64,000 nucleotides of DNA from a virus (IMGVR_UViG_3300010002_000010:27949-91948); one strand, 5' to 3'. Positions 3,402 to 49,783 are shown, counted from the stretch's first letter. Made by a program: numbers and translations. The notes: generated by a model not told the origin, from the letters alone.

Positions 3402-3421
3402 TAAAAAGAGTGGGGTTTCCC
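3391..3421. terminator. bidirectional rho-independent terminator between convergent genes
   Basis: aaagagtggg-gttt-cccactcttt with T-runs on both strands. Confidence 0.7.
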
Positions 3422-3435
3422 ACTCTTTACATAAA

Positions 3436-13057: not shown

Positions 13058-15076
13058 TTAAACTACAACTACATATTTCAATTTTCCTTTTCGAGTTGCA
13101 TATACCCCAGTTGCGGTCCGAACAGCGTTTTCTGAGTAATTGCTTGTGTTAAATTCAACTGTCGCTTTGTCTGTAACTAGTTTAAGTGTTGATTCTTTTT
13201 CTAAGAATAATACCGCATGAATTTTTTGCTTTGTATTCAATGCTTTTTTCAAAACCCGTCGATTAAGATCGAAGTGCTTTTTACTCAATCGAGCAACTTT
13301 ATTATTTTCATAAATTGCCATAATTACATTATGAGTATTATCAACAATTCCATACTCAACAATATCAATGGAGTCCTCTTTGGCAAGTGTCGGTAAATAA
13401 GATCCAAGGGCTTTCGGTTTTGTTTCTTCAATTGCAGAAATGTCTACTTTAAAAGCATCTTGCTCTTCATTGAAGATTAAAATAGATCCGCTGTTTTGAG
13501 TGTTGAAGGTTTTTGCAATCTCATCACCAGGCTTTAACGTTGGTTCAATATCTGTTTTGCGGAATTTATAAGCATATCCTTCTGCGGTAAGATGAACCAC
13601 AACGTTATAATCATTTTCAATTTTTGCTTTTTCCGTCATTTTATTTTTGATTTTAAGTTGTTTTTCTTGTGAGATCTCAATGATTTCAGATTGACGGTCA
13701 ACGCCATATTTATCACTTGTTGATTTTAATCCTTGGAGAATTACTTGATTCATTTTTTTAGGATCATCAATGACAGATTGCAATGAGACAATTTTTGCTT
13801 CCATGTCTTCAATATTCTTGACTTGTTTTTCAATATATTCTTTATTGATATTCCGTAATTTCATGTCAGCAACTTTATCGGCCTGTGCCTCATCAATTTC
13901 AAAACGTTTTGCCAATTTTGGAATAATGTCTTTTTCTTTTGAAAAACGGATAATCTCAATGACTTCATCAATATAATCAATGATTTTAGCCATTCCGTAA
14001 AGTAAATGGAGATCGCTTTTTAATTTCTCAATATCATATGTCATTCCGCGAGAAATACAGTTTGCACGCCATTCAAGCCACTTAATAATTGCTGGCCATA
14101 CTCCCATTACTTTAGGAAGCCCGTCAACGATCATATTCATGTTCGCGGGAAATGATGATTGAAGCGGTGTAAGTTGATAAAGTTTTTCAAGAAGCAATTT
14201 CATGTCTGTTCCTTTTCGAGCGGTAAGTGAAATTCGCATCCCTTTAAAACCAGTTAGATCTTTAATATTCGTGACTTCTTTTAATTTTTCTGTTTTGGCC
14301 AATGCCGTAACTTTTTCAATAATAGCTTCGCGGGTAGTTGAATATGGAATTTCCATAATATCAATTTTGTTTTTGTCAATGATTGCTCGGCCTCTAAGTT
14401 GTGTTGATCCATTTCCCATATGATTGATTTGCTCAAAAATTGCCGGATCATTTACAACAAATCCTTTAGTGGCAAAATCTGGAATTAAAATATTTTTTTC
14501 GCCGGTCTTCATATAATTTTCAATTGCTTGAGTAATCTCTTTTAGATTGAATGACGGAATTGAAGACGCAAAACCAACACCTGTTCCTGAGCTTGCATAT
14601 GCTAAAACAGATGGGAATTTTACTGGAAGTACTTCTGGGATCTTCATTGTTCCATCGTAGTTATCAACAAAGTCAACCATATTTTTATTGAAATTTTGCA
14701 TCATTTCAGTTCCAACATCTGATAATTTTACTTCGGAATAACGAGCCGCGGCCGGTGCCAAGTCCCGTGAGGTATTCTGGCCAAATGATCCTTTACCAAT
14801 GATTGTTGGAATTGCATGCCGATCTTTTTGAACCATTTTAACCATTGACTCGTAAGTGTCTGAGTGAGGGTGGATCTTCATTACTTGACCAGAAATATTA
14901 GCAGACTTTGTAAATTTAAATGCTTTTGCGGTAAATAACGTAAATAAGATCCGGCGATGAACAGGTTTCCATCCATCTCGCAGATCAGGAATTGCACGAT
15001 CCAAAAGAACATAAGTTGAATATACGCCCATGTTATCTGTAATAACTTGTGAAGCTTCAAATTCAGTATTAGCCAT
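13058..15076 (-). CDS. type II DNA topoisomerase, DNA-cleavage subunit (GyrA/ParC N-terminal homolog, T4 gp52-like)
   Basis: LLDRAIPDLRDGWKPVHRRILF and active-site AAARYSEV match GyrA signatures; 672 aa, so it lacks the GyrA C-terminal domain. Confidence 0.85.
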   Translation of the reverse strand: MANTEFEASQVITDNMGVYSTYVLLDRAIPDLRDGWKPVHRRILFTLFTAKAFKFTKSANISGQVMKIHPHSDTYESMVKMVQKDRHAIPTIIGKGSFGQNTSRDLAPAAARYSEVKLSDVGTEMMQNFNKNMVDFVDNYDGTMKIPEVLPVKFPSVLAYASSGTGVGFASSIPSFNLKEITQAIENYMKTGEKNILIPDFATKGFVVNDPAIFEQINHMGNGSTQLRGRAIIDKNKIDIMEIPYSTTREAIIEKVTALAKTEKLKEVTNIKDLTGFKGMRISLTARKGTDMKLLLEKLYQLTPLQSSFPANMNMIVDGLPKVMGVWPAIIKWLEWRANCISRGMTYDIEKLKSDLHLLYGMAKIIDYIDEVIEIIRFSKEKDIIPKLAKRFEIDEAQADKVADMKLRNINKEYIEKQVKNIEDMEAKIVSLQSVIDDPKKMNQVILQGLKSTSDKYGVDRQSEIIEISQEKQLKIKNKMTEKAKIENDYNVVVHLTAEGYAYKFRKTDIEPTLKPGDEIAKTFNTQNSGSILIFNEEQDAFKVDISAIEETKPKALGSYLPTLAKEDSIDIVEYGIVDNTHNVIMAIYENNKVARLSKKHFDLNRRVLKKALNTKQKIHAVLFLEKESTLKLVTDKATVEFNTSNYSENAVRTATGVYATRKGKLKYVVVV

Positions 15077-15094
15077 TTTTTTTAATCTCCTCTA

Positions 15095-15125
15095 AAACTA
15101 ATTTCATTACTCTTATATTATACTT
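15095..15125 (-). promoter_or_regulatory. conserved phage promoter (TTTCAT-N16-TATAATATAAgag) for the GyrA-like gene
   Basis: ctcttatattatacttg reverse-complemented; terminator cgacca-aattgc-tggtcg upstream at ~15140-15178. Confidence 0.55.
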
Positions 15126-15179
15126 GTTTTTTAAAAAAATGAAAGAAAAAAGACGACCAAATTGCTGGTCGCCTACGTT

Positions 15180-15593
15180 TTATTTTCCTAGATAAATTTT
15201 GTCATCGGAAATCAAAGTACAGATCCAATCACAAGCCTGATCCAAGGCCTCAACATTTGAAACCGTAAATTTATTCACATTGTGGTTTTTTCTTGGAATG
15301 GTCATAATTAAAGGAGAAAGGTTGCTCATATCATAATCAGCAATAGTTTCAATATAAAAAGTTCCAAGTCCTGTTTTATTCATTCTTAAATGACCAAAAG
15401 TAATCAATGATCCAGCTTCCTTGAAATATATAACGGGTTGACTGGCCGCTAGTTTTGTTACCATATTGCACCGTTGTTCAAAAAGTCTCATTAACAGCTC
15501 GGGGTTTTTAATATTCTCGTTTGTGATCTTTGCCTCTTTCATTACTTTCTCTTCAATTACGATTTCCCTAATCTCTTTTTGTTCTGCCATCAT
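15180..15593 (-). CDS. hypothetical protein (137 aa) between the two topoisomerase subunit genes
   Basis: Its position matches T4 gene 60, but no sequence match was recognised. Confidence 0.45.
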   Translation of the reverse strand: MMAEQKEIREIVIEEKVMKEAKITNENIKNPELLMRLFEQRCNMVTKLAASQPVIYFKEAGSLITFGHLRMNKTGLGTFYIETIADYDMSNLSPLIMTIPRKNHNVNKFTVSNVEALDQACDWICTLISDDKIYLGK

Positions 15594-15740
15594 GTGCTTT
15601 CATCCCTTTCTTATTAAAATAAATTAGGCCAAAATGCCTATATCTATATTTTTATTATACACTCTTTTTACTGTAATGTATATTAATTTGATCTACAATT
15701 TAAAGTTTTTTGCAATATTCTAAAAATAAAAAAGATAGCG

Positions 15741-17681
15741 TCAAATGACGCTATCAATATATTTATTGAGGTTATTAGAGATGAAGGCTTTTCGATTTGT
15801 TACGTCGTCTCCCATCCAGTCGTTGATCGAGGCAATCATTTTTTCTGCATCTTCGACAGTAATCTTAATAAGGTTACGTGTTTCTTTGTTCATCGCAGTT
15901 TCCGCCATTACTTCTGGCTCCAATTCTCCCAATCCTTTTACCCGTGAAATTACATATTTACCTTTGATCTTTGGCAATTCCTTATTTTTTTGTGCATCTG
16001 TATAGAAATAAGTCATGGTATCGTCTTCATGTTTAATTTCATAAAGTGGAGTTTGAGCAATATAAATCAAACCAGCACTTAAAAGGTCAGGCATCAATCG
16101 ATAAATCATTGTAATTATAAGCGAAGCAATATGGGCTCCATCCGCATCAGCGTCCGTCGCAATAATAATTTTACCAAAATTTAACTTTTTAATATCGAAT
16201 GAATCAAGATCTTTGTTTTTCTTGTCGCCTTTAATTCCACAACCAAGGATCTTGATTAAATCAACAATAACTTTGTTTGATAGGATCGTTACATAATCAG
16301 TTTTTAGACAGTTGAGGATTTTACCTTTTAATGGATGAGCCGCCTGGAAAACAGAATCACGTGCTTCAACGATCGAGGTTAAAGCGGAATCTCCTTCAGC
16401 CACGAATAGTTCAGCATCTTTACCATGAATATCACAATCGACAAATTTATCAATTTTGTTTCCGATACCTTCAATTTTCTCGCTTAACTGTTTTTTGAGC
16501 TTTGCTTTTGCTTTATCATTGTTTGAGTTAAATTTTTGAACTTCCAATAAATGAGCAACCATCTTTTTAAATTGTTTTTGATCTTGAATAGAAATTACTT
16601 CCATTAAGCTCTCAACATATTCTTTTGCTTGCTTTTTATAAAGGTCTTTATTTGTGCTCAGTTTTGTTTGGTTAGCAAACTCAACGTTATTTGATTCAGT
16701 AATTGCAAGGAATGAAATTGAAGATTCAACATCCTCTTTCTTAAAAGCAGTTACACCTTTAGGGAATAGTTTATTGTCTCGACAATGTTTATTCATAAAT
16801 AACCGGACACCATCAAGGATCCCATCATTAATTGTTCCACCTTCTTCAAGGAAAGTCATATTCAAGTAACTTTCATGAACGGTTGATGGCATTGTGGCAA
16901 TAAAAATATCAAAAGAGTTTTTCTCTTCAACTAGACCGCCATCGACAACTTGAACCTCAGTAACTTTTTCAACTTTACCAAGATTGAAAATTGGAGAAGT
17001 TGCTTCGTTTGAAATCATTTCTTCAAAATACTGTTTAGACGATTCATATAAAAATTCTTTTTCTTCCCCTTCAAAAGAGAAAATAAATTTAATACCCAAA
17101 GCACCAACCGCAAAATGTTGTACAATCTCTTCAATCAAATGCTTTTCAAATACAGTGTTCGTATAAATTGATTTATCCAAAACAAATGAGAACTTAGATC
17201 CTGTGTAGATTCCGCGGTAATTTGCTTTTGTTAACTCTCCATCTAAATAGCCACCGTTTACAAATTTAATTTTGTGGTGAGTACTGTTATAGAATGAGTC
17301 AACTTCGAATAATTCAGAAGTATAACAAATTGCGGTATTACCAACACCGTTTGTTCCGGTGCTTGCACGATCGGTAACATCATATTTGGTTCCGGCAAAC
17401 AGTGTTAAAAACAATAGTTCATAGTTTGGAATACCATCTGTTTCACCGTCAATTGGAATCCCTCGACCATTATCTTCAACAGTGATCTTTCGCAATTCGC
17501 CGTCATGTTCGCTTAATGTTACTTTTACAGTAGGATCCTGTTGTTTATTATTCCGAAGTTCATCGGCGGCGTTTGCAATTGTTTCTTTGATTGGATGATA
17601 GAAATTATCACGGGATCCAAACCAAATACTTAATTTTTCACGAGCTTGACTTCTGTCATCTAGTTTTCTGATCTTATCCAC
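15741..17681 (-). CDS. type II DNA topoisomerase, ATPase subunit (GyrB/ParE homolog, T4 gp39-like)
   Basis: GHKL ATPase signature (EDNGRGIP) and TOPRIM (AEGDSAL); 646 aa. Confidence 0.85.
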   Translation of the reverse strand: MDKIRKLDDRSQAREKLSIWFGSRDNFYHPIKETIANAADELRNNKQQDPTVKVTLSEHDGELRKITVEDNGRGIPIDGETDGIPNYELLFLTLFAGTKYDVTDRASTGTNGVGNTAICYTSELFEVDSFYNSTHHKIKFVNGGYLDGELTKANYRGIYTGSKFSFVLDKSIYTNTVFEKHLIEEIVQHFAVGALGIKFIFSFEGEEKEFLYESSKQYFEEMISNEATSPIFNLGKVEKVTEVQVVDGGLVEEKNSFDIFIATMPSTVHESYLNMTFLEEGGTINDGILDGVRLFMNKHCRDNKLFPKGVTAFKKEDVESSISFLAITESNNVEFANQTKLSTNKDLYKKQAKEYVESLMEVISIQDQKQFKKMVAHLLEVQKFNSNNDKAKAKLKKQLSEKIEGIGNKIDKFVDCDIHGKDAELFVAEGDSALTSIVEARDSVFQAAHPLKGKILNCLKTDYVTILSNKVIVDLIKILGCGIKGDKKNKDLDSFDIKKLNFGKIIIATDADADGAHIASLIITMIYRLMPDLLSAGLIYIAQTPLYEIKHEDDTMTYFYTDAQKNKELPKIKGKYVISRVKGLGELEPEVMAETAMNKETRNLIKITVEDAEKMIASINDWMGDDVTNRKAFISNNLNKYIDSVI

Positions 17682-26746: not shown

Positions 26747-27985
26747 TTATTCTTCATTGTACAGTTTGACTTTCTCGCCTTGTAGATAGATTTCTCCATT
26801 TTTCTGGCCAACAATTTTAATCGTGGTATGATTAATAGATGATCCGCGAGTATTTAAAACAAACTCGGCATCCCGTCGGTAACCATTCAAGATCAGTAAT
26901 GTTCCGCGCTCAAACCAGCTAGGATCCAAGACTTCTTTATCTTTTCCTTTTACCTGAACAACTTTTTTATCATAGTGGGCAAAAGTTCCTTTTGTATAAC
27001 GGATTGTGACAACACCATCTTGAGTTAATACAAAGATCAAGCTTTTGGTTTTGTCTTTATCTACTACTGTTCCCGCAATTGTGCTAATTTGATAGTTCGG
27101 GATTTCACGGCCACGCCATTTTTTCCATTCTCGAACAACAGGAACTTCCGGAAGCTCTTCAAATTTGGAAATATTATAAAGGCTTGACAGATCATAATAG
27201 TCCAGTTCATGTTTATGCTTATAATAAAGCAATGTTGACATTTCCCAAGCTTCAATTGATCCCGAGCATTCATCGATCCAAAATTGTTTACGGTTTTTGG
27301 CAGTAAGAATCTGAACAGTTTCAGGTTTTGCTAACCATTCTTTCAGTCGGCCAATACCTTTTTCATAGTATTTCTTGAATGATTTTTCATCAATTACAAG
27401 CTTTCCTTTTTCAAAAGTGTATTCGACATGATCTTTATATTTTGCAATAAATTCATCTTCGATTTCACGAGTCATTACTGCTTTTTTACCGACCGCTTTA
27501 ATTTTGAAATTATACAATTCCAATTCTGGTCCGTATTCTTCTTTATTAATATGATCGATTACATGCGGAAGATTTGCCATTGTCAATTTTGTTTTTGCTG
27601 GTACCGCAATCTTAACAAAATCAATCATTAGTTTTCTGCGGTCTGATTCAAATTCATCAAATGATCCTGACTTAATTAATGTTACAATTTTCTTATTTGA
27701 AATTCCAGATCCCTCAAATGACGTTTTTTCTAAGAAATTCTCAAAAGAAGTATAAGGACGATTAGCAATGACAGTTGCGACAACATCTTTCCCAAGCCCA
27801 ACAATTGGTTTCAATCCAAACAGGATCTTATTCTCTGATTCAAGTGGCGTAAATCCTGGACGAGATTTATTAATATCTGGCGGAAGAACTTCATCTTTAA
27901 TATTTCCGATCGCTTTTGCAATCTTACCATATTTTGTATTAGTTTCTTTTTCACCTGATAATCCTGAGTTTACGGATAAACAAGC
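26747..27985 (-). CDS. dnaE: DNA polymerase III alpha (DnaE)-like polymerase, exon 2 (C-terminal part: ILPPDIN-like motif, HhH, OB region); 5' boundary approximate
   Basis: VLPPDINKS and LKPIVGLGKDVVATVIANRPY align with DnaE fingers/HhH segments; continues the 29046-31538 frame across the intron. Confidence 0.75.
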   Translation of the reverse strand, partial: ACLSVNSGLSGEKETNTKYGKIAKAIGNIKDEVLPPDINKSRPGFTPLESENKILFGLKPIVGLGKDVVATVIANRPYTSFENFLEKTSFEGSGISNKKIVTLIKSGSFDEFESDRRKLMIDFVKIAVPAKTKLTMANLPHVIDHINKEEYGPELELYNFKIKAVGKKAVMTREIEDEFIAKYKDHVEYTFEKGKLVIDEKSFKKYYEKGIGRLKEWLAKPETVQILTAKNRKQFWIDECSGSIEAWEMSTLLYYKHKHELDYYDLSSLYNISKFEELPEVPVVREWKKWRGREIPNYQISTIAGTVVDKDKTKSLIFVLTQDGVVTIRYTKGTFAHYDKKVVQVKGKDKEVLDPSWFERGTLLILNGYRRDAEFVLNTRGSSINHTTIKIVGQKNGEIYLQGEKVKLYNEE

Positions 27986-29045
27986 TGTTTTCCAAAATAC
28001 AGATCCAAAGAGAAGGCAGATATTCATCTCAATCATCAAGATCAAAGTATAGCCCGCAATGTGTGGAAGTGAGAATGCATCATGTGATCCAAATTTTTCA
28101 ATCTGGCATGGACTATATCTTTACAATGCGATCCAATTATTTAAATTTGAAATAGGGCGCCCGTCGAAAGCTATTTGATCTTTGAATATTTACTTCAATA
28201 TGATTCACCCGCTTATTTAACTCTTTCGCGGCTTCATATATATCTGTAAACTCTTTGATTAAAGATCCATCAATGTTAAAATACAAAATTGGTTTTCCAA
28301 CTAATTCTTGTTTGCGGTTTTTAATTCCGCCCACTTTTGCATTTATAGGACATTGTTTTTTACGCTTTTCGCTGGTTCGATTAATCAGTCCATTTTCTGA
28401 AGCATGTTTCATATTGCCCGCGTTATCTGTCCATTCTAAATTTGTATAATGGTTATTTTGTTTATTACCATCTAAATGGTTAACCACATTAAATTTATTA
28501 GGATCCGGGTTTTTAACAAACGTTTCACATACCAGCCGATGAATATATTTCTCAATTGGTCCTAATCTTGTTCTAAAATATCCATTAGGTAATAGAGTTT
28601 GCTTCTCAATTCGTTCTGGCCGTATATACTTTCTTCCGTCTGTTCCAATATGAATATGATTTAATCGTTTTACTTCACCGTTTTCCGAAACTAAAAAATT
28701 TGAATCATCTGCTGTTGTTTTCCATTCCATAAGAAACTCTCCTTATAAATGGATCGCATTGTACTTTGCTCTTCGAATAACGTACCAATAGTTATCCTAC
28801 TCTACTAACTTCCACAATTTCTGTGTGCTTTCGATAGTCTCTACACCTTCAATTAAGCTAGGCACGGTATTATCGGCTACCCATATTTCAGGGTTTAGAT
28901 TCTCTTAGTCAGCGGCTTCGTCTTTTGGTAAATCCTGTCATTTCCTTGTTAGGCTTGGACAGAAGTCTTATTCAACTGATACCGTTAGCATGATCTTAAG
29001 ATCATACACCCCTGGTTGGGTTCACAAAGTTAACGGGCAAGCTAT
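27986..29045 (-). mobile_element. group I intron (approximate bounds) in the polymerase gene, carrying an HNH homing endonuclease ORF
   Basis: ~1.06 kb interruption between aligned DnaE segments (...SYVWTYCLEPQF | ...ACLSVNSG...LPPDIN); ~310-nt GC-richer non-coding block at 28731-29045. Confidence 0.7.
28137..28730 (-). CDS. HNH homing endonuclease (intron-encoded)
   Basis: HNH-type motif ...VNHLDGNKQNNHYTNLEW...; RBS aaggagag. Confidence 0.75.
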   Translation of the reverse strand: MEWKTTADDSNFLVSENGEVKRLNHIHIGTDGRKYIRPERIEKQTLLPNGYFRTRLGPIEKYIHRLVCETFVKNPDPNKFNVVNHLDGNKQNNHYTNLEWTDNAGNMKHASENGLINRTSEKRKKQCPINAKVGGIKNRKQELVGKPILYFNIDGSLIKEFTDIYEAAKELNKRVNHIEVNIQRSNSFRRAPYFKFK

Positions 29046-31538
29046 TCACCCAAATTGTGGTTCTAGGCAATAAGTCCAAACATAGCTTAAGAATAAAACA
29101 CTTGTCCCAAGATCTTTTCCCTGTTCAAAGAATAATTCTTTTTGCTCCGCAATGAGCTCTTTATTCTGTTTAGCTACGGCTTTCCGGAATTTATTGGCTT
29201 GAGTTAATGTGAACCCTGAGATTTTTTGATCCATCGAGATCTCCATAAGACCTTCTTGTGTATCGCAGATTCCGTATCGATCATTTAGGTGGTTAATTAG
29301 AATATTTTTTTCGTCTTCAGTTAAATTATTTTCGTCCATTTCTTTATACCAAAGAGAAATATCATTCTTAAATTCAACATATTTATCGATCGGTTGTTTT
29401 CCTGAAGTTGTTAATCGCATCAATGAGTTACCCGCAGATAATTCATCAAAAGATTGCGGTTTAATTTTGTTCAGTGCACTAATACCAACATTGGTTTCAA
29501 ATTGGAAAGCATTGAATACCTCACCTTTTGCAAGCATTTCGTACATTTGCGGATCTTGCATCTCTAAAACATCTGGATGAAGATATTTTTCATAAGTCTC
29601 CCGCAGAGTACCTTGCCATTCAATTTTACCGTATTCTTCCAATAAAGCCATAGCTTCACGGATCCGCCCAAGTGCATCAACTGAAAGGAAATCTAATTTT
29701 AAACCGCCCAATGCTTCTGTATCTTTTGCATCGAATTGAGTAACCGCTAATCCTTTTGTTGTTTGCATTAATACATTTTGTTCGATATATCCGTTAGGGA
29801 AAATTACAATTCCTGAAGCGTGCTGAGATCGACCAGAAATTAATCCTTCAATTGAAAGCAAAGCATCTCGCAATCCTTCATGACTATCAACCTCATTAAT
29901 AAACTCTTGAACAGGACGGCGTTTTTCTTCTTCGTTTCCAAAGAGACAATCTCGAATTGGCCAGTTTTCTGCTTTTTCTTTTGGAATTAGGTTTGCAATA
30001 TTCATTGCAATATCTTTATCAATATCTAATCCACGGCAAGCAGTTAATACAGATGATCGGGATTTTTCTGTTGTAAATGTTCCCATGTTCAAAACATTTT
30101 CTTCGCCAAACTCTTTTTTAATAAGTTCAACAATTTCCAATCGTTTTGATCCTTCAGTATCAATGTCAATATCTGGCAACTCTACCCGCTCTTTTGACAA
30201 GAAACGCCAGTGAGGAAGTTTATATTTAATTGGGTTGATTTGAACAATATCTAACAAATAGTTTGTGTAATAACAACTTGCTGATCCACGAGAAACTCCG
30301 ACCAGCGAAACTTTCCACATAATATCAACTACTTGCTTTGTTAAGGTAAAGTAAGAAGATAGCGGTTGGTTAAGTGCTTTGGAAATATGCCAGATCTCAT
30401 TTAGCTCGGTATTAATACGATCAAGGTTTTCATGATTGTATTCTTCGTTCCGTCGAACCATTCCCTCTTCAATTAGCTTCAAATAATAACGGTCAACAAG
30501 GTTTGGGCTGTTTTTAAATTCACCAATATAGTTGTATGCAATGGTAAACTTATCAAATGAAGTTGCTTCTGTAAAGTCTGCTGGAATCTTCGTATTTGGA
30601 ACTTTAATTGGCTGATCCAAACTATATGATTCAATTTTGCTTTGGATCTCAATTGTATTTTTTGCCAACACCCGAAGTAGATTATCTGGGAAAAATTCAA
30701 GCAGTTCATCGTATGACATTACATAAGTTGTTCCATAGAATTGATCGACTTCTCGCTCTCCTTCTGAGGCTTGCAAATATGCGCGGTGTTGATCTTGGAA
30801 ACCTTTATTCAAATAATGGGCATCTGTGGCGACAATACATTTCACATTGTACACTTCTGATAATTTCAAAAGCATGCGGTTTGCCGTGTGTTGATCTTTT
30901 TGGTAAGATGGTTGAAGCTCAAAATAGAAATCAGTTCCAAACAAGCCTTTCATCAAAGTAACAAAATCGTGCATTTTCTTTTTTAATTCCTGCGATGGGT
31001 TTTCATCATAAGCAATTAAATATTGCGGTAGTTCTCCACCAACACAAGCAGTAGTTGCGATAAGATCTCCTGAATATTCTTGCATAATTTCATAAAGATC
31101 ATCTTTATATGTTGGAACACGGAACATACCGTTTTGGTAAAATCCATTTTTCCAAGCTTTTGATGATAGGATTTTAAGAGCTTTATAACCGCGTTCATTT
31201 TTAGCAATTAAAATGAAATGAGGATATTTAATTTTAGTGCCGTTTTCGAGGCTATCTTCTACTTTATCACGGTCAAGAAGATAGATCTCATTACCAAGTC
31301 CAATTGAATAATCATCAGGTAATTTACCTGCTTCTTTTTGCTTTTTAACATATTTTAATAATTTTACATGATTTGACAAAGCTTCATGATCGGTGCAAAC
31401 AAACCCCTTCAAACCAATTTCTGCGGTATAATCAACTAACATTGTGATCTTGTTAATCGCATCACGTAGACGGAAATTGCTTGCATCAGAGTGAGAATGT
31501 GTTAAGAAAATATTTTTATATTCTGGCAGTGTATTCAT
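29046..31538 (-). CDS. dnaE: DNA polymerase III alpha (DnaE)-like polymerase, exon 1 (PHP domain plus palm and fingers)
   Basis: PHP motifs HSHSDAS...CTDHE; C-terminal ...LSYVWTYCLEPQF aligns with DnaE ...VSYQTAWLKAHYPAEF; RBS aggagga. Confidence 0.8.
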   Translation of the reverse strand: MNTLPEYKNIFLTHSHSDASNFRLRDAINKITMLVDYTAEIGLKGFVCTDHEALSNHVKLLKYVKKQKEAGKLPDDYSIGLGNEIYLLDRDKVEDSLENGTKIKYPHFILIAKNERGYKALKILSSKAWKNGFYQNGMFRVPTYKDDLYEIMQEYSGDLIATTACVGGELPQYLIAYDENPSQELKKKMHDFVTLMKGLFGTDFYFELQPSYQKDQHTANRMLLKLSEVYNVKCIVATDAHYLNKGFQDQHRAYLQASEGEREVDQFYGTTYVMSYDELLEFFPDNLLRVLAKNTIEIQSKIESYSLDQPIKVPNTKIPADFTEATSFDKFTIAYNYIGEFKNSPNLVDRYYLKLIEEGMVRRNEEYNHENLDRINTELNEIWHISKALNQPLSSYFTLTKQVVDIMWKVSLVGVSRGSASCYYTNYLLDIVQINPIKYKLPHWRFLSKERVELPDIDIDTEGSKRLEIVELIKKEFGEENVLNMGTFTTEKSRSSVLTACRGLDIDKDIAMNIANLIPKEKAENWPIRDCLFGNEEEKRRPVQEFINEVDSHEGLRDALLSIEGLISGRSQHASGIVIFPNGYIEQNVLMQTTKGLAVTQFDAKDTEALGGLKLDFLSVDALGRIREAMALLEEYGKIEWQGTLRETYEKYLHPDVLEMQDPQMYEMLAKGEVFNAFQFETNVGISALNKIKPQSFDELSAGNSLMRLTTSGKQPIDKYVEFKNDISLWYKEMDENNLTEDEKNILINHLNDRYGICDTQEGLMEISMDQKISGFTLTQANKFRKAVAKQNKELIAEQKELFFEQGKDLGTSVLFLSYVWTYCLEPQFG

Positions 31539-33458: not shown

Positions 33459-33953
33459 TTATTTTTCCTCCATTTTAAAGTTATCCATTGCAATATTTAC
33501 CAAAAGATCCGCTCGGTTGTTACCTTCATTATCTGAGTGGCCTTTTACTTTTACAAAATCGATCCATTCAAACTTTTCCATTTCTAAGAGCAGTCGTTCC
33601 CATAATTCTTTATTAGCGACAGGTTTTTTGGCAGTTGTTCTCCAACCATTCATTTGCCAAAGTTTATAACTTTCTTTTTTGATCGCATTAATTACATACG
33701 CGGAATCCGAATGAATTACAACCGGAACCTCTTTTTTGGTAATTGCTACCATGGCGGCGATAATAGCTTTCATCTCCATCTGGTTATTTGTTACCCCGAC
33801 TTCTGCTCGAGAATATTCTTTTTCGTGACCTTTGAAAGTAAGAATACATGCCCAAGCACCAATTGCATTTTTCTTGCCGTTCCCGCGAACTCCGCCATCT
33901 ACCCAGCAATGAATGGCAGTTTTCTTTGTATCAATAAATCCTGTTTTGTTCAT
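33459..33953 (-). CDS. rnhA: ribonuclease HI
   Basis: DGG..G...G, TNN.MEM.A, HSDS.Y and KGH..N.GN..AD RNase HI signature blocks. Confidence 0.85.
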   Translation of the reverse strand: MNKTGFIDTKKTAIHCWVDGGVRGNGKKNAIGAWACILTFKGHEKEYSRAEVGVTNNQMEMKAIIAAMVAITKKEVPVVIHSDSAYVINAIKKESYKLWQMNGWRTTAKKPVANKELWERLLLEMEKFEWIDFVKVKGHSDNEGNNRADLLVNIAMDNFKMEEK

Positions 33954-34804
33954 TTGAATTCCCTCCAGAATTTTATTTGCAGTTTCTTATAAACAATTCT
34001 ATTTCTTGAATATTCAATAATTGTTGTTCTTGGAACACTATAACCTTTTTCCAATAATTTTTTACCCAAATCATCAGCGCCACGGCCAGATAAAACCTCA
34101 TTTGTTTCAAGAATTTGAGCAAACATTATTTTTGAATTTGGATTATCTTTTCCAAATTTACCGTACATAGAATTTTTGGCGCCGGTTCGATCCGTTGGAT
34201 TTTCTTTTTTAGTTTTACTAATTTTTTCAAGGGTTTTTTTAGAATGTTTTTTTCCAAAAAATGGATTGTTTGATCCTGAGAAATCAATGCTTTTAGTTCT
34301 CATACCGTTTTTATCGCCGGTAATCTTATGACCTTGACCAAACATACTATTCCCTGATCCAGCCATTTGTTCACTTCGCATTTTTCGAATGCGGTTCATT
34401 TGTTTATCAGAATATCCTGCGTATGGATTTCCTTGATAGCCACCATCTTTTAGATTATACCAATCTCGATCTTTAACGGCGTCAAAAACTGTGTTAATAT
34501 AATGACGCTCCATTATTTCAAGATCCTCATAGGTTTTGCAAAGATGTATAATTCTTCTTTCAAAGCTCTCTTTACCATGTTTTTTGATAGCTTTTGCAAG
34601 AACAGTTCCACTGCCTAAATATGCTTTCATCCAACTAGTATGTTGGCCAACATATTTTCTTCCGTTGTTTTTATTTATAGTCACATAAATAAAACCTGCA
34701 TACATTTCTCTATCAATGCTTTCAAAATCATGGTTTTCCATATCCTGACAGATCAAACGATATTCGTCATCATTGTCAGGATTCCAATTGGAATGGCCAT
34801 TCAT
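33950..34804 (-). CDS. free-standing GIY-YIG homing endonuclease with NUMOD3-like repeats
   Basis: GFIYVTINKNNGRKYVGQ (GIY...YVG); three N.x(F/Y)G.....K repeats (NSMFGQGHK, NNPFFGKKHSKKT, NSMYGKFGK). Confidence 0.8.
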   Translation of the reverse strand: MNGHSNWNPDNDDEYRLICQDMENHDFESIDREMYAGFIYVTINKNNGRKYVGQHTSWMKAYLGSGTVLAKAIKKHGKESFERRIIHLCKTYEDLEIMERHYINTVFDAVKDRDWYNLKDGGYQGNPYAGYSDKQMNRIRKMRSEQMAGSGNSMFGQGHKITGDKNGMRTKSIDFSGSNNPFFGKKHSKKTLEKISKTKKENPTDRTGAKNSMYGKFGKDNPNSKIMFAQILETNEVLSGRGADDLGKKLLEKGYSVPRTTIIEYSRNRIVYKKLQIKFWREFK

Positions 34805-34806
34805 TT

Positions 34807-35265
34807 TTATAAAACTCCTTCCGCGATCAGTCTACTTACAATGTGCTCAACTGATTCTTTTGAAGTATCAACAGTGATTACATTCAGACGAGAATTTTTG
34901 ACTTCTTTCTCATAAACTTCTTTATGATAATTAAAATCTAAAACTTCATGGCCTGATCTCCAGCATCTTTCAACAAGAACATCAGTATCACAATCAAGGT
35001 AAATGGTTTGTGTCATTGGTCTTTTCCGCGATGACATCATTTCCAAAGCATCCAGCATAACCAATCCAGATTCCATCGATTCATATGATCGAATTAGATC
35101 CTCGCTTCGGTTAAAAATCTTGGCATAGGTTTTAAATCCAATTGGACCACGATCTACAATGACGTGTTGATAATTTGTTTGGCGGTTAATTTCATCCCAC
35201 ATAGTTCCTTTACCTGATCGGTCAACACCTTCGAGGATAATCATTTTGCAATATTTGTCTTCCAT
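34807..35265 (-). CDS. thymidylate-kinase-like P-loop dNMP kinase
   Basis: IILEGVDRSGKGT P-loop typical of Tmk; short at 152 aa. Confidence 0.55.
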   Translation of the reverse strand: MEDKYCKMIILEGVDRSGKGTMWDEINRQTNYQHVIVDRGPIGFKTYAKIFNRSEDLIRSYESMESGLVMLDALEMMSSRKRPMTQTIYLDCDTDVLVERCWRSGHEVLDFNYHKEVYEKEVKNSRLNVITVDTSKESVEHIVSRLIAEGVL

Positions 35266-46486: not shown

Positions 46487-47419
46487 TTAAGAACTACATG
46501 CTAAACAGTTATCTTCATATTTTTTATCCCAAGTACGAGTGTAGTAAGATGTCTTAATACCTTTTTTCCAAGCTCGAACATGAAGCGAAAGCAACTTTTT
46601 AGCCGATGTTCCTTGTGGTACATAGAAATTAAATGATGATGCTTGATCGACAAAAATCTGACGAGCCGCGTTATGGTCAATAGCAAATTCATGGGCAAGA
46701 CCTTCATCAGCTTTTTTCATTTTCATAGTTGGTTTGTAGTAATGCCATGTTACAGGGTTTAGGTTTGGCACAATCAATGGAAGCATGAAATCTTTTTTGC
46801 GCTCCATGAAGATTACATCAAAGATTGGATCAATTCCGGCGGTAGATCCAGCAATTACCGAAGTGGCTCCGGTTGGCGCAGGTGATCGAAGATAACCATT
46901 CCGCATACAGCGTGAAGCCATTTTTTGAACAATCTCCCATAAAGGGTGATTCAAATGACCATCTGCTTTTCGTTTTTCAAACCATTCACCAGTCTGCCAT
47001 TCAGATCCTTCAAATACTTTATAAGATCCTTTTTCTTTTCCAAGAATTGATGAGTTCATGATTGTATAAAGCATGATTTCTTCCTCAAGTTCCTGAATGT
47101 ATTTTGTGGCTTCTTCTGAATCCCAATCGAGTTGTTTATCAGCAAGCAAAGCCGCGATTCCTTGTTCTCCAGCACCAACAGCTCGATATTTTTTATTGGT
47201 AAACTCTGCTTGTGGAACAGGTGCTGTTTGTAATGAAATTACATTATCCAACGCTCGCATTTGAATTGCGATAATACGATCAAGAACGTCATCACGGACA
47301 ACATTATTCAGAACCAACGATGAAAGGTTACAGGTAACTAGATCACCAATTGATTTAGTAATGATTACTTTTTCATTAGCCCAATCAATCTCTTGTTGTT
47401 CAACATTTGATGGGGACAT
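46487..47419 (-). CDS. nrdE: ribonucleotide reductase alpha subunit NrdE, exon 2 (C-terminal part; true 5' splice boundary lies a few codons inside the frame, near ...QEIDW)
   Basis: ...EIDW...LVTCNLSSLVL matches the post-SNLC-x-EI region and the second catalytic Cys loop. Confidence 0.8.
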   Translation of the reverse strand: MSPSNVEQQEIDWANEKVIITKSIGDLVTCNLSSLVLNNVVRDDVLDRIIAIQMRALDNVISLQTAPVPQAEFTNKKYRAVGAGEQGIAALLADKQLDWDSEEATKYIQELEEEIMLYTIMNSSILGKEKGSYKVFEGSEWQTGEWFEKRKADGHLNHPLWEIVQKMASRCMRNGYLRSPAPTGATSVIAGSTAGIDPIFDVIFMERKKDFMLPLIVPNLNPVTWHYYKPTMKMKKADEGLAHEFAIDHNAARQIFVDQASSFNFYVPQGTSAKKLLSLHVRAWKKGIKTSYYTRTWDKKYEDNCLACSS

Positions 47420-48361
47420 GTTCTGCCCAATTTCAGTCCTGCATATTCCCTCTAGCTCGCTATGCTAGAAGCGTCACTCTTGGTGACTGCTATATGTTGC
47501 CATATAGAGTAGACTATATCATGATCTTAAATTAAGATCCCTTGCTTTTCCATTTAAGAGGTTTTACACTACCTTATTACGGTAACACCTCACCCCAATA
47601 GCTTGGGCTGTACTCTACTCCCTTAACCTTTCGGCGGTTTCGATAGTCGTTCGGCATTTATTAATCAATCTTATCAAGCATATTTCCAATCAGGATATTT
47701 TTCACTTTTTAACTTATACAGAACGCCACTCTTACTTTTATATCCTAACTTCTTCGCGGCTTCAGTAATACTTTCATATTCAATACTATTAATAATACAT
47801 TTTTTGGAATTTGCTTCTTTTACGCTGTTAATCATTTTTTGTGATTTTGGTTTACCATATTGATGGTTTCCAGATCCAGACATTTGATCCACTCTCATTT
47901 GTCTAATTCCTTCTTTATTTGGATGACCTGTAAAAACATCACCACCAATTGAAGAGAGTTTAATATTATAGAAGTCTTTTGAATTTACGGCATCGAACAT
48001 TAAAATATAATATTCTTCAACTTCTCTTAACTCTTTTTCATTATCACATTCATCAATAATGATCTTGTAAAAGTTTTCTTTCCCATATTTATTGATTGCT
48101 CTTTTTAAATAAACTCCGCTTCCTAAATACTTTTCCCATGAGTTTATTCTTGAATAAACACATTTTCCAACATATTTTTTACCAGTAAGTTTATTAATTG
48201 TGATATAAACAAAACCATATTTCAAGTTTTTATTCTCCATTCTTAAATGCCAATAAAAGAATGATAAGATTGATTAAATTTAGCACGGGATTGTCCTCAT
48301 GGGATATTCCCCGTTTAACAAGGTTTTTCGATAAGCTTTTCAGCTTAAAGGTGCTAAGAAA
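47420..48361 (-). mobile_element. group I intron (approximate bounds) in nrdE, carrying a GIY-YIG endonuclease ORF
   Basis: Exon 1 ends ...YSSNLC followed by a stop; the obligatory xEI continuation is found ~940 nt downstream; non-coding blocks flank the GIY-YIG ORF. Confidence 0.75.
47674..48240 (-). CDS. GIY-YIG homing endonuclease (intron-encoded)
   Basis: YGFVYITINKLTGKKYVGK (GIY...YVG motif); 188 aa. Confidence 0.8.
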   Translation of the reverse strand: MENKNLKYGFVYITINKLTGKKYVGKCVYSRINSWEKYLGSGVYLKRAINKYGKENFYKIIIDECDNEKELREVEEYYILMFDAVNSKDFYNIKLSSIGGDVFTGHPNKEGIRQMRVDQMSGSGNHQYGKPKSQKMINSVKEANSKKCIINSIEYESITEAAKKLGYKSKSGVLYKLKSEKYPDWKYA

Positions 48362-49783
48362 TTAACACAGGTTAGATGAGTAAATCATACCGGCATGTTT
48401 ATTTGGGTTATTACGGTTTACTGTATCGCGGTAGAACATATATGGTGTTCCTGTTTCAAGCTGAGAAATCTCAAACTTTTTAACAAGATCCAAAGCGTTT
48501 ACACGTGTTTTTGCTAATTCTTGGTTATCAATACATAATTGGTAATGATAAGTCCAAGCATGATCTGTTGGATTTGGTTTTTCTTTCTCACCAAGAAGCT
48601 TATTATCGTAAAAGTCTTCTAAATGGAATCCCATAACATCTTTGATTTCATGCGGATCAAACAAATACCAGTCGCCTCGTTTTTCAATTTGACGCATAAA
48701 TTCATCTGGAATTGTGATCCCTGTGAATAATTCATGAGCCCGTTCTGCCTTGTCACCGGTATTTAATCGCAACTCAAGGAAACGAACAATATCTTTATGC
48801 CAAATATCAAGATAAACAGCGATCGCACCAGGACGAACACCTAATTGATCGACTGAAACGGCTGTGTTATTTAATTGGCGGATCCAAGGAATTACACCTG
48901 ATCCAACACCATGGAACCCTTTAATCGAAGATCCTCGACCGCGAACTTTACCAAGATAGACACCAAGTCCAGCACCATTTTTACTGAAAGTTGCAATATC
49001 TGTATTGTCATCATAGATCCCGCGAAGTGAATCAGGTGTTGTAACAACGTAACAACTCGATAAACCCCCATCAATTCGTCCCGCATTTGATAATGTTGGT
49101 GTCGCCAGTGTGAGATAAAGATTTGATAATGCAAAGTACAATTCTTTGACATGATCCATTCGATCTTTTTTCTCTTCCATCATTAATGTCAAAGCCGCGA
49201 TCATAAACCGTTCTTGCGGTAGCTCATAAATCGATTTATCAAAATCTTTTACCAAATACCGATTTGCAAGTGCTTGGATTCCAGCAAAATCAAATAGTTC
49301 ATCTTTTGATGGATCAATCATTTGACCAGCAAGGATTAGATCTTCCCGGGTATAATTTTTTAATAATTCAGGTGTGTAAAGACGTTTATCTGTCAACGTT
49401 TTAATGAGGCCATAAAAATCACCATACATTAGTTTTGAATCATAAAAACGGTTTTTAGAGGCTCGCTTGTATAATTCTTGTTGAAAAATATATCGTGCCA
49501 TTTTTGTCCAGTTTACATTCAGTAATGTTTCGCTAGAAACTACACCATCTTCGTTTTTGATCCGATTAGCCAGAACAGTAGATTCTTGAATTAAAATCTT
49601 GCGGATGTCTTTGGCTTCAATATCCGGTCGTTGAGAAATTAAGCGGATTACTTTTTCAGCATATTCGCTTTTTGTTTCTTCTGGTAGTTTAACTTTTTCA
49701 AATCCTTTTCCAATAAAATCCATTAAACGTGAAGCGCTAAATTCCATTGATCGTTGCCCGTTATCTTTTAAAACCGTTGTCAT
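48362..49783 (-). CDS. nrdE: ribonucleotide reductase alpha subunit NrdE, exon 1 (N-terminal 473 aa ending SSNLC)
   Basis: Class I RNR alpha architecture ending at the active-site SNLC; RBS aaaggagag. Confidence 0.85.
   Translation of the reverse strand: MTTVLKDNGQRSMEFSASRLMDFIGKGFEKVKLPEETKSEYAEKVIRLISQRPDIEAKDIRKILIQESTVLANRIKNEDGVVSSETLLNVNWTKMARYIFQQELYKRASKNRFYDSKLMYGDFYGLIKTLTDKRLYTPELLKNYTREDLILAGQMIDPSKDELFDFAGIQALANRYLVKDFDKSIYELPQERFMIAALTLMMEEKKDRMDHVKELYFALSNLYLTLATPTLSNAGRIDGGLSSCYVVTTPDSLRGIYDDNTDIATFSKNGAGLGVYLGKVRGRGSSIKGFHGVGSGVIPWIRQLNNTAVSVDQLGVRPGAIAVYLDIWHKDIVRFLELRLNTGDKAERAHELFTGITIPDEFMRQIEKRGDWYLFDPHEIKDVMGFHLEDFYDNKLLGEKEKPNPTDHAWTYHYQLCIDNQELAKTRVNALDLVKKFEISQLETGTPYMFYRDTVNRNNPNKHAGMIYSSNLC

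What the first reader, a model, noticed from the sequence alone, without database searches (positions are those of the whole stretch)
26747..31538. DnaE-type (Pol III alpha) replicative polymerase interrupted by a group I intron with an HNH endonuclease
The 830-aa ORF (PHP domain HSHSDAS...CTDHE) ends at ...SYVWTYCLEPQF, which aligns with DnaE ...SYQTAWLKAHYPAEF. The alignment resumes at ...ACLSVNSG...VLPPDINKS (DnaE MAAVMTAD...ILPPDIN) about 1.06 kb downstream in the next ORF. The gap holds an HNH ORF (28137-28730) and about 400 nt of GC-richer non-coding sequence, as expected for a group I ribozyme core.

Together with the intron in nrdE and a free-standing GIY-YIG gene (33950-34804), the replication module carries three homing endonucleases. 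A DnaE-type rather than family-A polymerase, with the helicase-primase-RecJ order nearby, resembles SPbeta-group Bacillus phages (yorI-yorL); this is from memory.
Basis: partly seen in the sequence, partly recalled or inferred. Interest (0 to 1): 0.5.

Follow-up and report, generated by a model that had tools for sequence, protein, structure and literature searches.

The report
Self-splicing intron splits phage DNA polymerase
The DNA polymerase gene of this Geobacillus-phage-GR1-like virus is interrupted by a 967-base self-splicing group I intron that carries its own HNH homing-endonuclease gene; this is a real but ordinary selfish element, with relatives in the same gene of many other phages.

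Summary
The core claim holds; its details needed correction. On the minus strand, a DnaE-type (Pol III alpha-like) polymerase gene is split into exon 1 (29048-31538) and exon 2 (26747-28080) by a 967-nt group I intron (28081-29047).

- **Splice test:** Joining U29048 to A28080 gives a 1274-aa protein. It reads ...KPQFG-Y-AFSLPHIAGY... and is colinear, without indels, with uninterrupted homologues (about 60% identity) and with solved DnaE structures.
- **Ribozyme core:** The intron has P1 with a U·G splice-site pair, P3-P9, P7.1/P7.2 (an IA2 trait) and a terminal G. P1, P3, P7 and a loop-loop contact covary across homologous introns.
- **Rfam:** The window copy scores only 24 bits (threshold 50) because the ORF fills the P8 loop. 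An ORF-less sibling at the same site scores 72 bits.
- **Endonuclease:** The intron ORF (28137-28730) resembles I-HmuI and has its own ribosome-binding site.

- The protein alignment was about 20 residues out of register.
- The intron's 3' end was about 95 nt off.
- The closest cultured phage is Geobacillus phage GR1, then Staphylococcus Sextaecvirus phages. SPbeta was not among the closest cultured phages.

Homologous polymerase genes carry introns of this family at three or more sites. The case is a new member of a known kind. Splicing and homing are inferred, not shown.

The parts
29048..31538 (-). Polymerase exon 1: 830 codons plus the first base (U29048) of codon 831. Holds the PHP, palm (DNA_pol3_alpha) and finger domains. 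A GAAGGAGG ribosome-binding site lies upstream of the ATG.
28081..29047 (-). Group I intron, 967 nt, IA2-like. It starts at G29047 after the splice-site U29048 and ends at the terminal G28081.
29034..29052 (-). P1 hairpin. Exon UGGGU (29052-29048) plus intron GA pair with the internal guide sequence UUGCCCG (29040-29034). [quoted passage not shown]
   Evidence: Read from the sequence. Guide sequences covary with the exon sequence at different insertion sites, and U·G is present in 12 of 12 (the guide sequences were picked by eye).
29024..29030 (-). P3 5' strand, ACUUUGU. It pairs with 28763-28769.
   Evidence: 7 of 7 pairs form here; 6 of 7 pairs show compensatory changes in the family.
28988..29020 (-). 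Two hairpins between the P3 5' strand and J3/4: CCC-AACCA-GGG (29020-29010) and GUAUGAUC-UUAA-GAUCAUGC (29007-28988). Loop ACCA (29016-29013) pairs with the P7.2 loop UGGU (28787-28784).
28845..28985 (-). P4-P6 domain. P4 is ACGGUAU (28985-28979) with AUACCGU (28870-28864). The extended P5 region is 28871-28978. P6 is GCC (28863-28861) with GGU (28847-28845).
   Evidence: This segment is the one shared with Enterocloster phage CB473P3 and with 46 viral contigs.
28834..28841 (-). P7 5' strand, G(A)GACUAU with a bulged A. It pairs with AUAGUCC at 28110-28116.
28775..28833 (-). P7.1 region (expanded; contains CACA/UGUG at 28827-28813), a GUA linker, and P7.2 (GGAUAAC 28797-28791 with GUUAUUC 28781-28775).
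   Evidence: The L002 homologue has GAGUGAC/GUCGCUC, a compensatory change. The IA2 criterion comes from PMC3428280 and PMC4227781.
28763..28769 (-). P3 3' strand, GCAAAGU.
28125..28760 (-). P8: a 10-bp stem, AAUGCGAUCC (28760-28751) with GGAUCGCAUU (28134-28125). Its 616-nt terminal loop holds the endonuclease gene.
   Evidence: 10 of 10 pairs
28137..28730 (-). Intron ORF of 197 aa: an I-HmuI-like HNH endonuclease (NUMOD4 plus HNH_3). An AAGGAG ribosome-binding site lies at 28744-28739.
28110..28124 (-). J8/7 (GUAAAGAU) and the P7 3' strand (AUAGUCC), together forming the conserved AAGAUAUAGUC element.
28081..28106 (-). P9 hairpin CCAGAUU-GAAA-AAUUUGG (28106-28089), then the tail AUCACAU and the terminal G28081 (3' splice site).
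26747..28080 (-). Polymerase exon 2: the last two bases of codon 831 (Tyr), 443 further codons and the stop codon. It holds the end of the finger domain (YAFSLPHIAGY...), HHH_6 and the C-terminal region. No ribosome-binding site precedes any in-frame start codon near its 5' end.

Best explanation
The replicative polymerase gene of this phage is a C-family, DnaE/Pol III alpha-like gene. It is interrupted in phase 1 of the Tyr codon of the conserved finger-domain motif FG-Y-(A/S)FS..H by a mobile IA2-like group I intron.

Proposed mechanism:
1. The gene is transcribed as one pre-mRNA.
2. The intron RNA folds. [quoted passage not shown]
3. It excises itself by two guanosine-initiated transesterifications.
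4. U29048 is joined to A28080, so that a single 1274-aa polymerase is translated.
5. The 197-aa ORF in the P8 loop is translated from its own ribosome-binding site. Its product is an I-HmuI-type HNH endonuclease.
6. By analogy with I-HmuI, I-BasI and I-PfoP3I, this enzyme nicks intron-less polymerase alleles of co-infecting relatives near the insertion site. Recombinational repair then copies the intron in (homing).

Shown here: the exon and intron boundaries, the conserved and covarying RNA structure, and the family membership of the ORF. Inferred: that splicing occurs, that the endonuclease is active, and that the intron homes.
For: - **Junction.** The conceptual splice gives ...EPQFGYAFSLPHIAGYTLILMIEMNIC.... 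This matches uninterrupted 1260-1280-aa homologues column for column and DnaE crystal-structure sequences.
- **Same-site relatives.** Homologues truncated at exactly ...PQFG exist. One (L003) has an ORF-less intron there that scores 71.9 bits on Rfam RF00028. Another (L002) has an intron with a homologous HNH ORF, 43% identical.
- **Core helices.** All core helices are present in the window with 3-10 Watson-Crick or G·U pairs each.
- **P3 and P7 covariation.** With fixed offsets in 17 distinct family members, 95.4% of cells pair, against 32-51% when the partner is slid. Six of seven P3 pairs show compensatory changes.
- **P1 covariation.** Guide sequences follow the exon sequence at different insertion sites, and the U·G pair is invariant.
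- **Tertiary contact.** A loop-loop contact covaries: 89% paired, against 15-51% when slid.
- **Family conservation.** The core sequence family occurs in 46 viral contigs and 83 cultured-phage records.
- **Endonuclease.** The ORF matches I-HmuI, HNH_3, NUMOD4 and PHROG HNH families and has an AAGGAG ribosome-binding site.
- **Exon 2.** It has no ribosome-binding site of its own.
- **Precedent.** Phage DNA polymerase genes are classical hosts of group I introns that encode nicking HNH enzymes (PMC3984707, PMC3428280).
Against: - There are no RNA data; splicing is inferred.
- The window copy scores only 24.3 bits on Rfam RF00028 (threshold 50) and nothing at gathering level. The 616-nt P8 loop, and a 5' domain that the model does not describe, would explain this.
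- The HNH_3 Pfam score (24.4) is just under the curated cut-off (24.8).
- The residue aligned with I-HmuI's DH motif is NH here. Activity is therefore not guaranteed.
- P10 is weak.
- The guide sequences used in the P1 count were chosen by eye.
Confidence: 0.9

Rival explanations
1. The intron is a decayed remnant that no longer splices. The polymerase is then either made as two separate polypeptides that assemble, or the gene is dead.
For: The sub-threshold Rfam score in the window; there is no experimental evidence of splicing; PHROGs contains families made only of such polymerase fragments.
Against: - Every core helix is intact.
- The covarying positions are satisfied in this copy.
- Exon 1 stops one codon after the splice site.
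- Exon 2 lacks both a ribosome-binding site and the first 11 conserved residues if started at its first TTG.
- Both exons remain about 60% identical to uninterrupted homologues along their full length.
- No other DnaE-type polymerase ORF was seen among the window ORFs that were scanned.
Confidence: 0.06
2. This is a 'fractured gene': a free-standing HNH gene inserted between two gene halves that are rejoined at the protein level by a split intein (the arrangement described in PMC2677866).
For: A homing endonuclease gene lies between the two halves of a DnaE-type gene. Inteins do occur in this polymerase family (Staphylococcus phage 6ec; P0106 carries Hint and LAGLIDADG domains).
Against: - There is no extra coding sequence. 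Exon 1 ends exactly at ...FG and exon 2 resumes at YAFS, with no intein-like residues.
- Pfam finds no Hint domain in either half.
- The flanks of the ORF are a conserved, covarying group I ribozyme.
Confidence: 0.01
3. The intron is real, but the 3' splice site is the G at 28089, which is the end of the Rfam alignment.
For: The Rfam alignment in the window ends at G28089.
Against: - With G28089 as the intron end, the only in-frame donor that follows a U (CAAUU|) gives ...EPQLSHDAFSLPH... instead of the ...PQFGYAFSLPH of uninterrupted homologues. A donor after U29048 is out of frame with exon 2 (sequence; motif).
- G28089 closes the P9 stem.
- The 28081 junction reproduces the homologue sequence exactly.
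- All same-site homologues also end in G at the equivalent position.
Confidence: 0.02

Closest known systems
Group I introns with nicking HNH endonucleases in phage DNA polymerase genes: SPO1 (I-HmuI), SP82 (I-HmuII), Bastille (I-BasI), Pf-WMP3 (I-PfoP3I)
   Same: An IA2-type self-splicing intron in a conserved motif of the replicative polymerase gene of a tailed phage. The ORF is of the I-HmuI family (PDB 1U3E, E 5.8e-6). The literature is summarised in PMC3428280 and PMC3984707.
   Different: Those host genes encode family-A (Pol I-like) polymerases and share one insertion site. Here the host is a C-family (DnaE/Pol III alpha-like) polymerase and the site is the FG|Y(A/S)FS motif of the fingers. 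Endonuclease activity is untested here.
Staphylococcus phage vB_SepS_SEP9 DNA polymerase (KF929199, CDS annotated as a join)
   Same: The same polymerase family, about 52% identical. The gene is already annotated as interrupted by an intervening sequence.
   Different: The SEP9 insertion is at LP|DIDID (residue 456/457 in our numbering). It is about 318 nt and ORF-less. Rfam finds no match there at E <= 0.001.
Enterocloster phages CB473P1-3 and CB457P1-2 (OP172753-OP172757)
   Same: In CB473P3 a homologous intron (74-80% identity over the P4-P6 region) sits at the same codon position of a DnaE-type gene. A second intron with an I-HmuI-like ORF sits at LP|DIDID. The four other records match the same intron core, but their insertion sites were not read.
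   Different: The polymerase is only 32-38% identical. The P8 loop has a short or no ORF. The gene pieces are annotated as hypothetical proteins.
Staphylococcus phage Twort IA2 introns (orf142, nrdE with I-TwoI)
   Same: P7.1 and P7.2 are linked by GUA. The P7 and J8/7 sequences resemble Twort's; this resemblance is recalled from memory and was not tested here.
   Different: The 5' domain differs. Here the P3 5' strand directly follows P1, two hairpins precede J3/4, and one of them kisses the P7.2 loop.
Inteins in DnaE (Synechocystis split DnaE intein; the intein in Staphylococcus phage 6ec polymerase)
   Same: A selfish element in a conserved site of a C-family polymerase.
   Different: Those elements are removed at the protein level. 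This one has no intein sequence and is removed at the RNA level.

Membership tests
Group I intron (Rfam RF00028) | Score at or above the family's gathering threshold (50 bits) | tested here: not met
   The window copy scores 24.3 bits, E 0.0013, covering only P8'-J8/7-P7'-P9. An ORF-less homologue at the same site (L003) scores 71.9 bits. The failure is explained by the 616-nt P8 loop.
Group I intron | [quoted passage not shown] | tested here: met
   UGGGU|GA pairs with UUGCCCG, and U29048 pairs with G29038. In the family 92.9% of cells pair and U·G is present in 12 of 12; the guide sequences were picked by eye.
Group I intron | P3/P7 pseudoknot core with the conserved J8/7-P7 element | tested here: met
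   P3 7 of 7 and P7 6 of 6 plus the flanking G-C pair in the window. In the family 95.4% pair, against 32-51% when slid, with compensatory changes in 7 pairs. The AAGAUAUAGUC element is present.
Group I intron | P4-P6 domain | tested here: met
   P4 7 of 7 and P6 3 of 3, with an extended P5. The P4-P5 motif is shared with 46 viral contigs. RNAalifold recovers P4 and P6. Covariation within P4 is not informative because the helix is nearly invariant.
Group I intron | Terminal G at the 3' splice site, with exon ligation restoring the host reading frame | tested here: met
   G28081. The splice restores ...FGYAFSLPH... without indels.
Group I intron | Guanosine-dependent self-splicing | not testable with these tools
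   Requires in vitro transcription and splicing, or RT-PCR.
Subgroup IA2 | P7.1 and P7.2 hairpins between P7 and P3', linked by G-U-A (criterion from PMC3428280 and PMC4227781) | tested here: met
   The P7.1 region is 28833-28801, followed by GUA, then P7.2 at 28797-28775 (7 of 7 pairs; compensatory change in L002). Other subgroup criteria, such as the P2 and P9 architecture, were not checked. The 5' domain is atypical.
HNH homing endonuclease, I-HmuI type | HNH (beta-beta-alpha-metal) motif with a conserved His and Asn residues | tested here: inconclusive
   - Pfam HNH_3 scores 24.4 bits, against a cut-off of 24.8.
- phmmer against I-HmuI (1U3E) gives E 5.8e-6, aligning HRLV...VVNHLDGNKQNNHYTNLEW with HRLV...VVDHKDGNKDNNLSTNLRW.
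- PHROG HNH families give E 1e-31.
- The Asp preceding the His in I-HmuI is Asn here and in the L002 and PG-2021_4 homologues.
HNH homing endonuclease | Site-specific nicking or cleavage of the intron-less allele, and homing | not testable with these tools
   Needs an enzyme assay and phage crosses.
C-family (DnaE / Pol III alpha) DNA polymerase | PHP, palm (DNA_pol3_alpha, with the PDIDID aspartates), fingers and HhH domains in order | tested here: met
   Pfam E 1.8e-50, 2.9e-28, 5.8e-22 and 1.9e-18. The ELPDIDIDTEG motif is present. The sequence aligns to the DnaE structures 5LEW, 3E0D and 2HNH.
SPbeta-like phage replication module (yorI-yorL) | Closest similarity and synteny to SPbeta-group phages | tested here: not met
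   - The best cultured match is Geobacillus phage GR1 (62% aa). Every other record is below 60%, and the next-ranked are Sextaecvirus and Enterococcus phages.
- Gene order matches GR1.
- The only nucleotide-level hit from 24 kb of the window is to GR1.
- SPbeta itself was not examined directly.

The most novel reading that the evidence does not exclude
This copy belongs to a distinct IA2-like intron lineage that may not have been described.
- Its 5' domain departs from the textbook order P1-P2-P3-P4. The P3 5' strand follows P1 directly, and two hairpins sit between P3 and J3/4.
- The first hairpin forms a covarying 4-5-bp kissing contact with the P7.2 loop.
- The lineage has colonised at least three sites of C-family phage polymerase genes: LP|DIDID, FG|Y and SLP|H. 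The last two are only six codons apart and are sometimes both occupied. A further insertion at about residue 615 in PMBT8 was not characterised.
- Standard Rfam scanning misses the ORF-bearing members. As a result, phage annotation and PHROGs list 'half polymerases' as separate proteins.
Probability: 0.3. Interest if true: 0.45.

Novelty: new member of a known kind. Interest (0 to 1): 0.3.

Why it matters
**Annotation.** The two ORFs and the HNH gene should be annotated as one 1274-aa polymerase (a join of 31538..29048 and 28080..26747) plus an intron-encoded endonuclease. They are not a truncated polymerase plus a 'DNA-binding protein'. PHROG families phrog_7513, phrog_12219, phrog_20695 and phrog_21652 appear to be built from such fragments. 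The same correction applies to several deposited phage genomes, for example the Enterocloster CB473P phages, PMBT8 and PG-2021_4.

**Biology.** The case extends the familiar pattern of a group I intron with a nicking HNH enzyme in the phage polymerase gene from family-A polymerases to C-family (DnaE-type) polymerases. It also shows a hot spot of insertion sites around the FGY(A/S)FSxxH finger motif and the catalytic PDIDID motif. That hot spot would suit studies of competition between neighbouring homing elements. None of this would surprise a specialist.

Tried and rejected
- **Rfam at gathering threshold** over the whole window found nothing. The E-value mode gave only a partial 24-bit match.
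- **The Rfam-implied 3' end (G28089)** was rejected. No donor after a U then restores the homologue sequence, and that G is part of P9.
- **My first P3 proposals** were abandoned because they did not covary across 16 homologues. These were GGUGU with G(U/C)(G/A)C(A/C), and xGC before UAACGG with GCA. RNAalifold then pointed to the true P3.
- **Structure-aware alignment.** mafft-qinsi was not installed. A full-length covariance model (about 350 positions) would exceed the calibration limit and was not built. Fixed-offset mini-alignments were used instead.
- **Megablast** of the polymerase region and of 24 kb of the window against cultured phages found no close relative.
- **Literature searches** for a group I intron in a phage DnaE/Pol III alpha gene found no paper in the held library that describes one. 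The only precedent found is the SEP9 GenBank join annotation.
- **Split-intein or 'fractured gene' reading** was rejected: there are no intein residues.
- **Weak hit.** A CRISPR-DR7 match at 27808-27839 (E 0.028, below threshold) lies inside exon 2 and is taken as chance.
- **SPbeta affiliation** was not supported.


Full report
**What is in the sequence.** All genes in this part of the window run on the minus strand.
- ORF 29046-31538 (830 aa) carries PHP, DNA_pol3_alpha and DNA_pol3_finger domains.
- ORF 26747-28045 (432 aa) carries the HHH_6 domain of Pol III alpha.
- ORF 28137-28730 (197 aa) between them matches HNH_3 and NUMOD4.

**Locating the junction.** In the exon-2 frame the sequence stays open upstream of the listed TTG start and reads ...AFSLPHIAGYT-LILMIEMN.... 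Joining U29048, the first base of the TGA that ends the 830-aa ORF, to A28080 removes 967 nt. The result is a 1274-aa protein reading ...YVWTYCLEPQFG-Y-AFSLPHIAGYTLILMIEMNICLLFGSVFWKTACLSVNSG....

A search of the large protein collection found dozens of uninterrupted homologues.
- They are 1260-1280 aa long, 55-61% identical and cover 99% of the query. Sources include Priestia megaterium, Bacillus wiedmannii, B. subtilis and Staphylococcus equorum records.
- In a MAFFT alignment the spliced sequence matches them column for column across the junction, KPQFGY(A/S)FSLPHIAGYT, with no gap.
- phmmer against PDB chains aligns the same stretch straight through Mycobacterium tuberculosis DnaE1 (L-PFADYAFNKSHAAGY) and Thermus aquaticus DnaE (LEAFANYGFNKSHAAAY).

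The insertion therefore lies in phase 1 of the Tyr codon of the conserved finger motif Y(A/G)FNKSH. The true 3' boundary is 28081, not about 27986.

**Is the intervening sequence a group I intron?** Rfam at gathering threshold finds nothing in the window. In E-value mode RF00028 gives 24.3 bits (E 0.0013) over 28089-28257. That match covers the 3' strand of P8, the AAGAUAUAGUC element and a GAAA-capped P9.

The homologue search also returned polymerase fragments that end exactly at ...KPQFG (P0115, P0120).
- The contig of P0120 (L003) has only about 300 nt between the two polymerase halves. That stretch scores 71.9 bits on RF00028, E 1.6e-16, above the 50-bit threshold.
- Its ends (GGGU|GAAC...AAGUG|AUGCAUUU) are the same as those in the window.
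- The contig of P0115 (L002) has the same intron carrying a 201-aa HNH ORF that is 43% identical to the window ORF.
- Megablast of the window region against cultured phages hit only Enterocloster phage CB473P3. The hit lies in the intron's P4-P6 region. There too the intron follows ...FG-[U] of a DnaE-type gene that is annotated as hypothetical proteins.

**Structure.** A 21-nt P4-P5 motif finds 46 viral contigs. RNAalifold on nine ORF-less or ORF-deleted family members revealed P3. In the window:

| Element | Sequence and window coordinates |
|---|---|
| P1 | UGGGU\|GA with UUGCCCG; U29048·G29038 wobble pair |
| P3 | ACUUUGU (29030-29024) with GCAAAGU (28769-28763) |
| P4 | ACGGUAU (28985-28979) with AUACCGU (28870-28864) |
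| P6 | GCC (28863-28861) with GGU (28847-28845) |
| P7 | G(A)GACUAU (28841-28834) with AUAGUCC (28116-28110) |
| P7.2 | GGAUAAC (28797-28791) with GUUAUUC (28781-28775) |
| P8 | 10 bp closing a 616-nt loop |
| P9 | CCAGAUU-GAAA-AAUUUGG (28106-28089) |
| Terminal G | 28081 |

All of these pair fully.

I extracted strands at fixed offsets from conserved anchors in 17 distinct family members and counted pairs.
- **P3 plus P7:** 95.4% paired, against 32-51% when the partner is slid. Six of seven P3 pairs have double (compensatory) changes. The distal P7 pair is A-U, G-C or U-A.
- **P1:** guide sequences follow the exon sequence at different insertion sites (GGGU/GCCC, GGCU/GGUC, GGAU/GUCC, GCCU/GGGC, ACCU/GGGU). 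The U·G pair is invariant. I picked the guide sequences by eye, so this count is biased.

P7.1 and P7.2 lie between P7 and P3' and are linked by GUA. That is the criterion used in the literature for subgroup IA2 (PMC3428280, PMC4227781). The 297-nt 5' part folds better than its shuffles (z = -2.8). It is 40% G+C, against 33.6% for the window.

**The intron ORF.** It fills the P8 loop. An AAGGAG ribosome-binding site lies 8 nt upstream of the ATG, and the stop codon lies 2 nt before the P8 3' strand. It matches I-HmuI (PDB 1U3E, E 5.8e-6), with HRLV...VVNHLDGNKQNNHYTNLEW aligned to the I-HmuI HNH motif. It also matches PHROG HNH endonuclease families (E 1e-31). The Pfam HNH_3 score is marginally below the curated cut-off (24.4 against 24.8). 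By contrast, no in-frame start near the 5' end of exon 2 has a ribosome-binding site, whereas the polymerase start has GAAGGAGG. This argues against independent translation of exon 2.

**Context and relatives.** tblastn of exon 1 against cultured phages gives Geobacillus phage GR1 as the best hit, at 62% identity, with an uninterrupted 1262-aa polymerase. Staphylococcus Sextaecvirus phages (6ec, SEP9 and others) and Enterococcus phages follow at about 50%.

Gene order in the window matches GR1:
- DnaB-like helicase, a possible primase, and a DHH/RecJ-like protein;
- P-loop kinase and RNase H;
- the polymerase, then dUTPase_2;
- guanylate kinase and RusA;
- amidoligase.

The only nucleotide-level hit from 24 kb of the window is also to GR1. 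SPbeta was not among the closest cultured phages, though it was never compared directly.

**Other insertions in this polymerase family.** Positions use the numbering of the spliced window protein.

| Site | Element | Where found |
|---|---|---|
| about residue 165 | intein | phage 6ec |
| 456\|457 (LP\|DIDID) | intron | SEP9 (GenBank CDS already a join), PMBT8, CB473P3, L008, L034 |
| about 615 | insertion | PMBT8 |
| 830/831 (FG\|Y) | intron | window, L002, L003, CB473P3, L019, L036, L051 and others |
| 836\|837 (SLP\|H) | intron | L004, the second intron of L002, Staphylococcus phage PG-2021_4 |

A blastn search with the intron core finds 83 cultured-phage records. They include phages of Enterocloster, Enterococcus, Mammaliicoccus, Clostridium and Lactobacillus, Bacillus phage G, and Bacillus phage 0305phi8-36 (in its recA gene). 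Most of these matches carry no annotation.

**Comparison with what is known.** Group I introns with nicking HNH endonucleases in phage DNA polymerase genes are textbook cases: SPO1, SP82, Bastille and Pf-WMP3. A review lists polymerases, ribonucleotide reductases and terminases as the usual phage targets (PMC3984707, PMC3428280). Those hosts are family-A polymerases. I found no paper in the held library that describes such an intron in a C-family phage polymerase. The SEP9 record, however, already annotates one. This is therefore a new member of a known kind.

**Rivals.**
- A decayed, non-splicing intron with two separate polypeptides is unlikely. The core is intact, and exon 2 lacks translation signals.
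- A split-intein 'fractured gene' is excluded, because no intein residues are present.
- An alternative 3' splice site at G28089 does not restore the homologue sequence.

**Limits.** Splicing, endonuclease activity and homing are inferred from sequence and comparison. No RNA or enzyme data exist here. The decisive experiments are listed under next steps.

Noticed in passing
window 46487-49783 (minus strand): The class Ib ribonucleotide reductase large-subunit gene (nrdE) is also split, into 48362-49783 and 46487-47419. The 942-nt gap holds an I-TevI-like GIY-YIG ORF (47674-48240; I-TevI DNA-binding domain E 7.8e-8) and a sub-threshold Rfam group I match (35.6 bits, E 4e-7, at 47490-47614). This intron does not carry the P4-P5 motif of the polymerase intron family.
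   Followed up: partly
window 33950-34804 (minus strand): A free-standing SegE-like GIY-YIG endonuclease gene with NUMOD3, 284 aa. It sits between the P-loop kinase gene (34807-35265) and the RNase H gene (33459-33953). Those two genes are directly adjacent in Geobacillus phage GR1, which suggests a mobile insertion.
   Followed up: partly
window 29013-29016 with 28784-28787; family loci L001-L062: A covarying 4-5-bp loop-loop (kissing) contact between the first hairpin after P3 and the P7.2 loop. Examples are ACCA/UGGU here, and ACUCA/UGAGU, GCUAA/UUAGC, GUUCA/UGAAC and AUCA/UGAU elsewhere. In 13 distinct sequences 89% of cells pair, against 15-51% when the partner is slid.
   Followed up: yes
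window 28988-29030: An unusual helix order: P1, then the P3 5' strand, then two hairpins, then J3/4 and P4. The P3 columns of the Rfam model pair poorly in the ORF-less homologue L003. I did not check whether this topology is already catalogued for IA introns.
   Followed up: partly
L002 7461-7562; L004 6488-7609; L062 (MZ417338.1) about 3229-4170: A second intron insertion site lies only six codons downstream (after ...YAFSLP|H). L002 carries introns at both sites. L004 and Staphylococcus phage PG-2021_4 carry only the downstream one; PG-2021_4's copy is of the same ribozyme family and has a homologous HNH ORF (40% identity).
   Followed up: partly
L008, L034, L059 (SEP9), L058 (PMBT8), L001 (CB473P3): Introns also sit at the catalytic palm motif LP|DIDID of DnaE-type phage polymerases. 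The L008 and L034 copies belong to the same ribozyme family. The SEP9 and PMBT8 insertions, of about 318 nt, gave no Rfam match at E <= 0.001.
   Followed up: partly
PHROGs phrog_7513, phrog_12219, phrog_20695, phrog_21652: Several PHROG families correspond to polymerase fragments bounded by the intron sites. For example, phrog_20695, labelled 'DNA binding protein', equals exon 2. This indicates widespread mis-annotation of intron-split DnaE-type polymerases in phage genomes.
   Followed up: no
L001 (OP172757.1 51885-62018): The polymerase of Enterocloster phage CB473P3 is annotated as three 'hypothetical proteins' plus an I-HmuI-like endonuclease. tblastn shows one DnaE-type gene with two introns, at sites 456|457 and 831|832.
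   Followed up: partly
window 13058-17681 (minus strand): The phage encodes its own DNA gyrase B (15741-17681) and gyrase/topoisomerase IV A (13058-15076) subunits downstream of the replication module.
   Followed up: no
window 27808-27839 (minus strand): A weak match to CRISPR-DR7 (25.7 bits, E 0.028, below the 37-bit threshold) inside polymerase exon 2. It is a single copy and is taken as chance.
   Followed up: no
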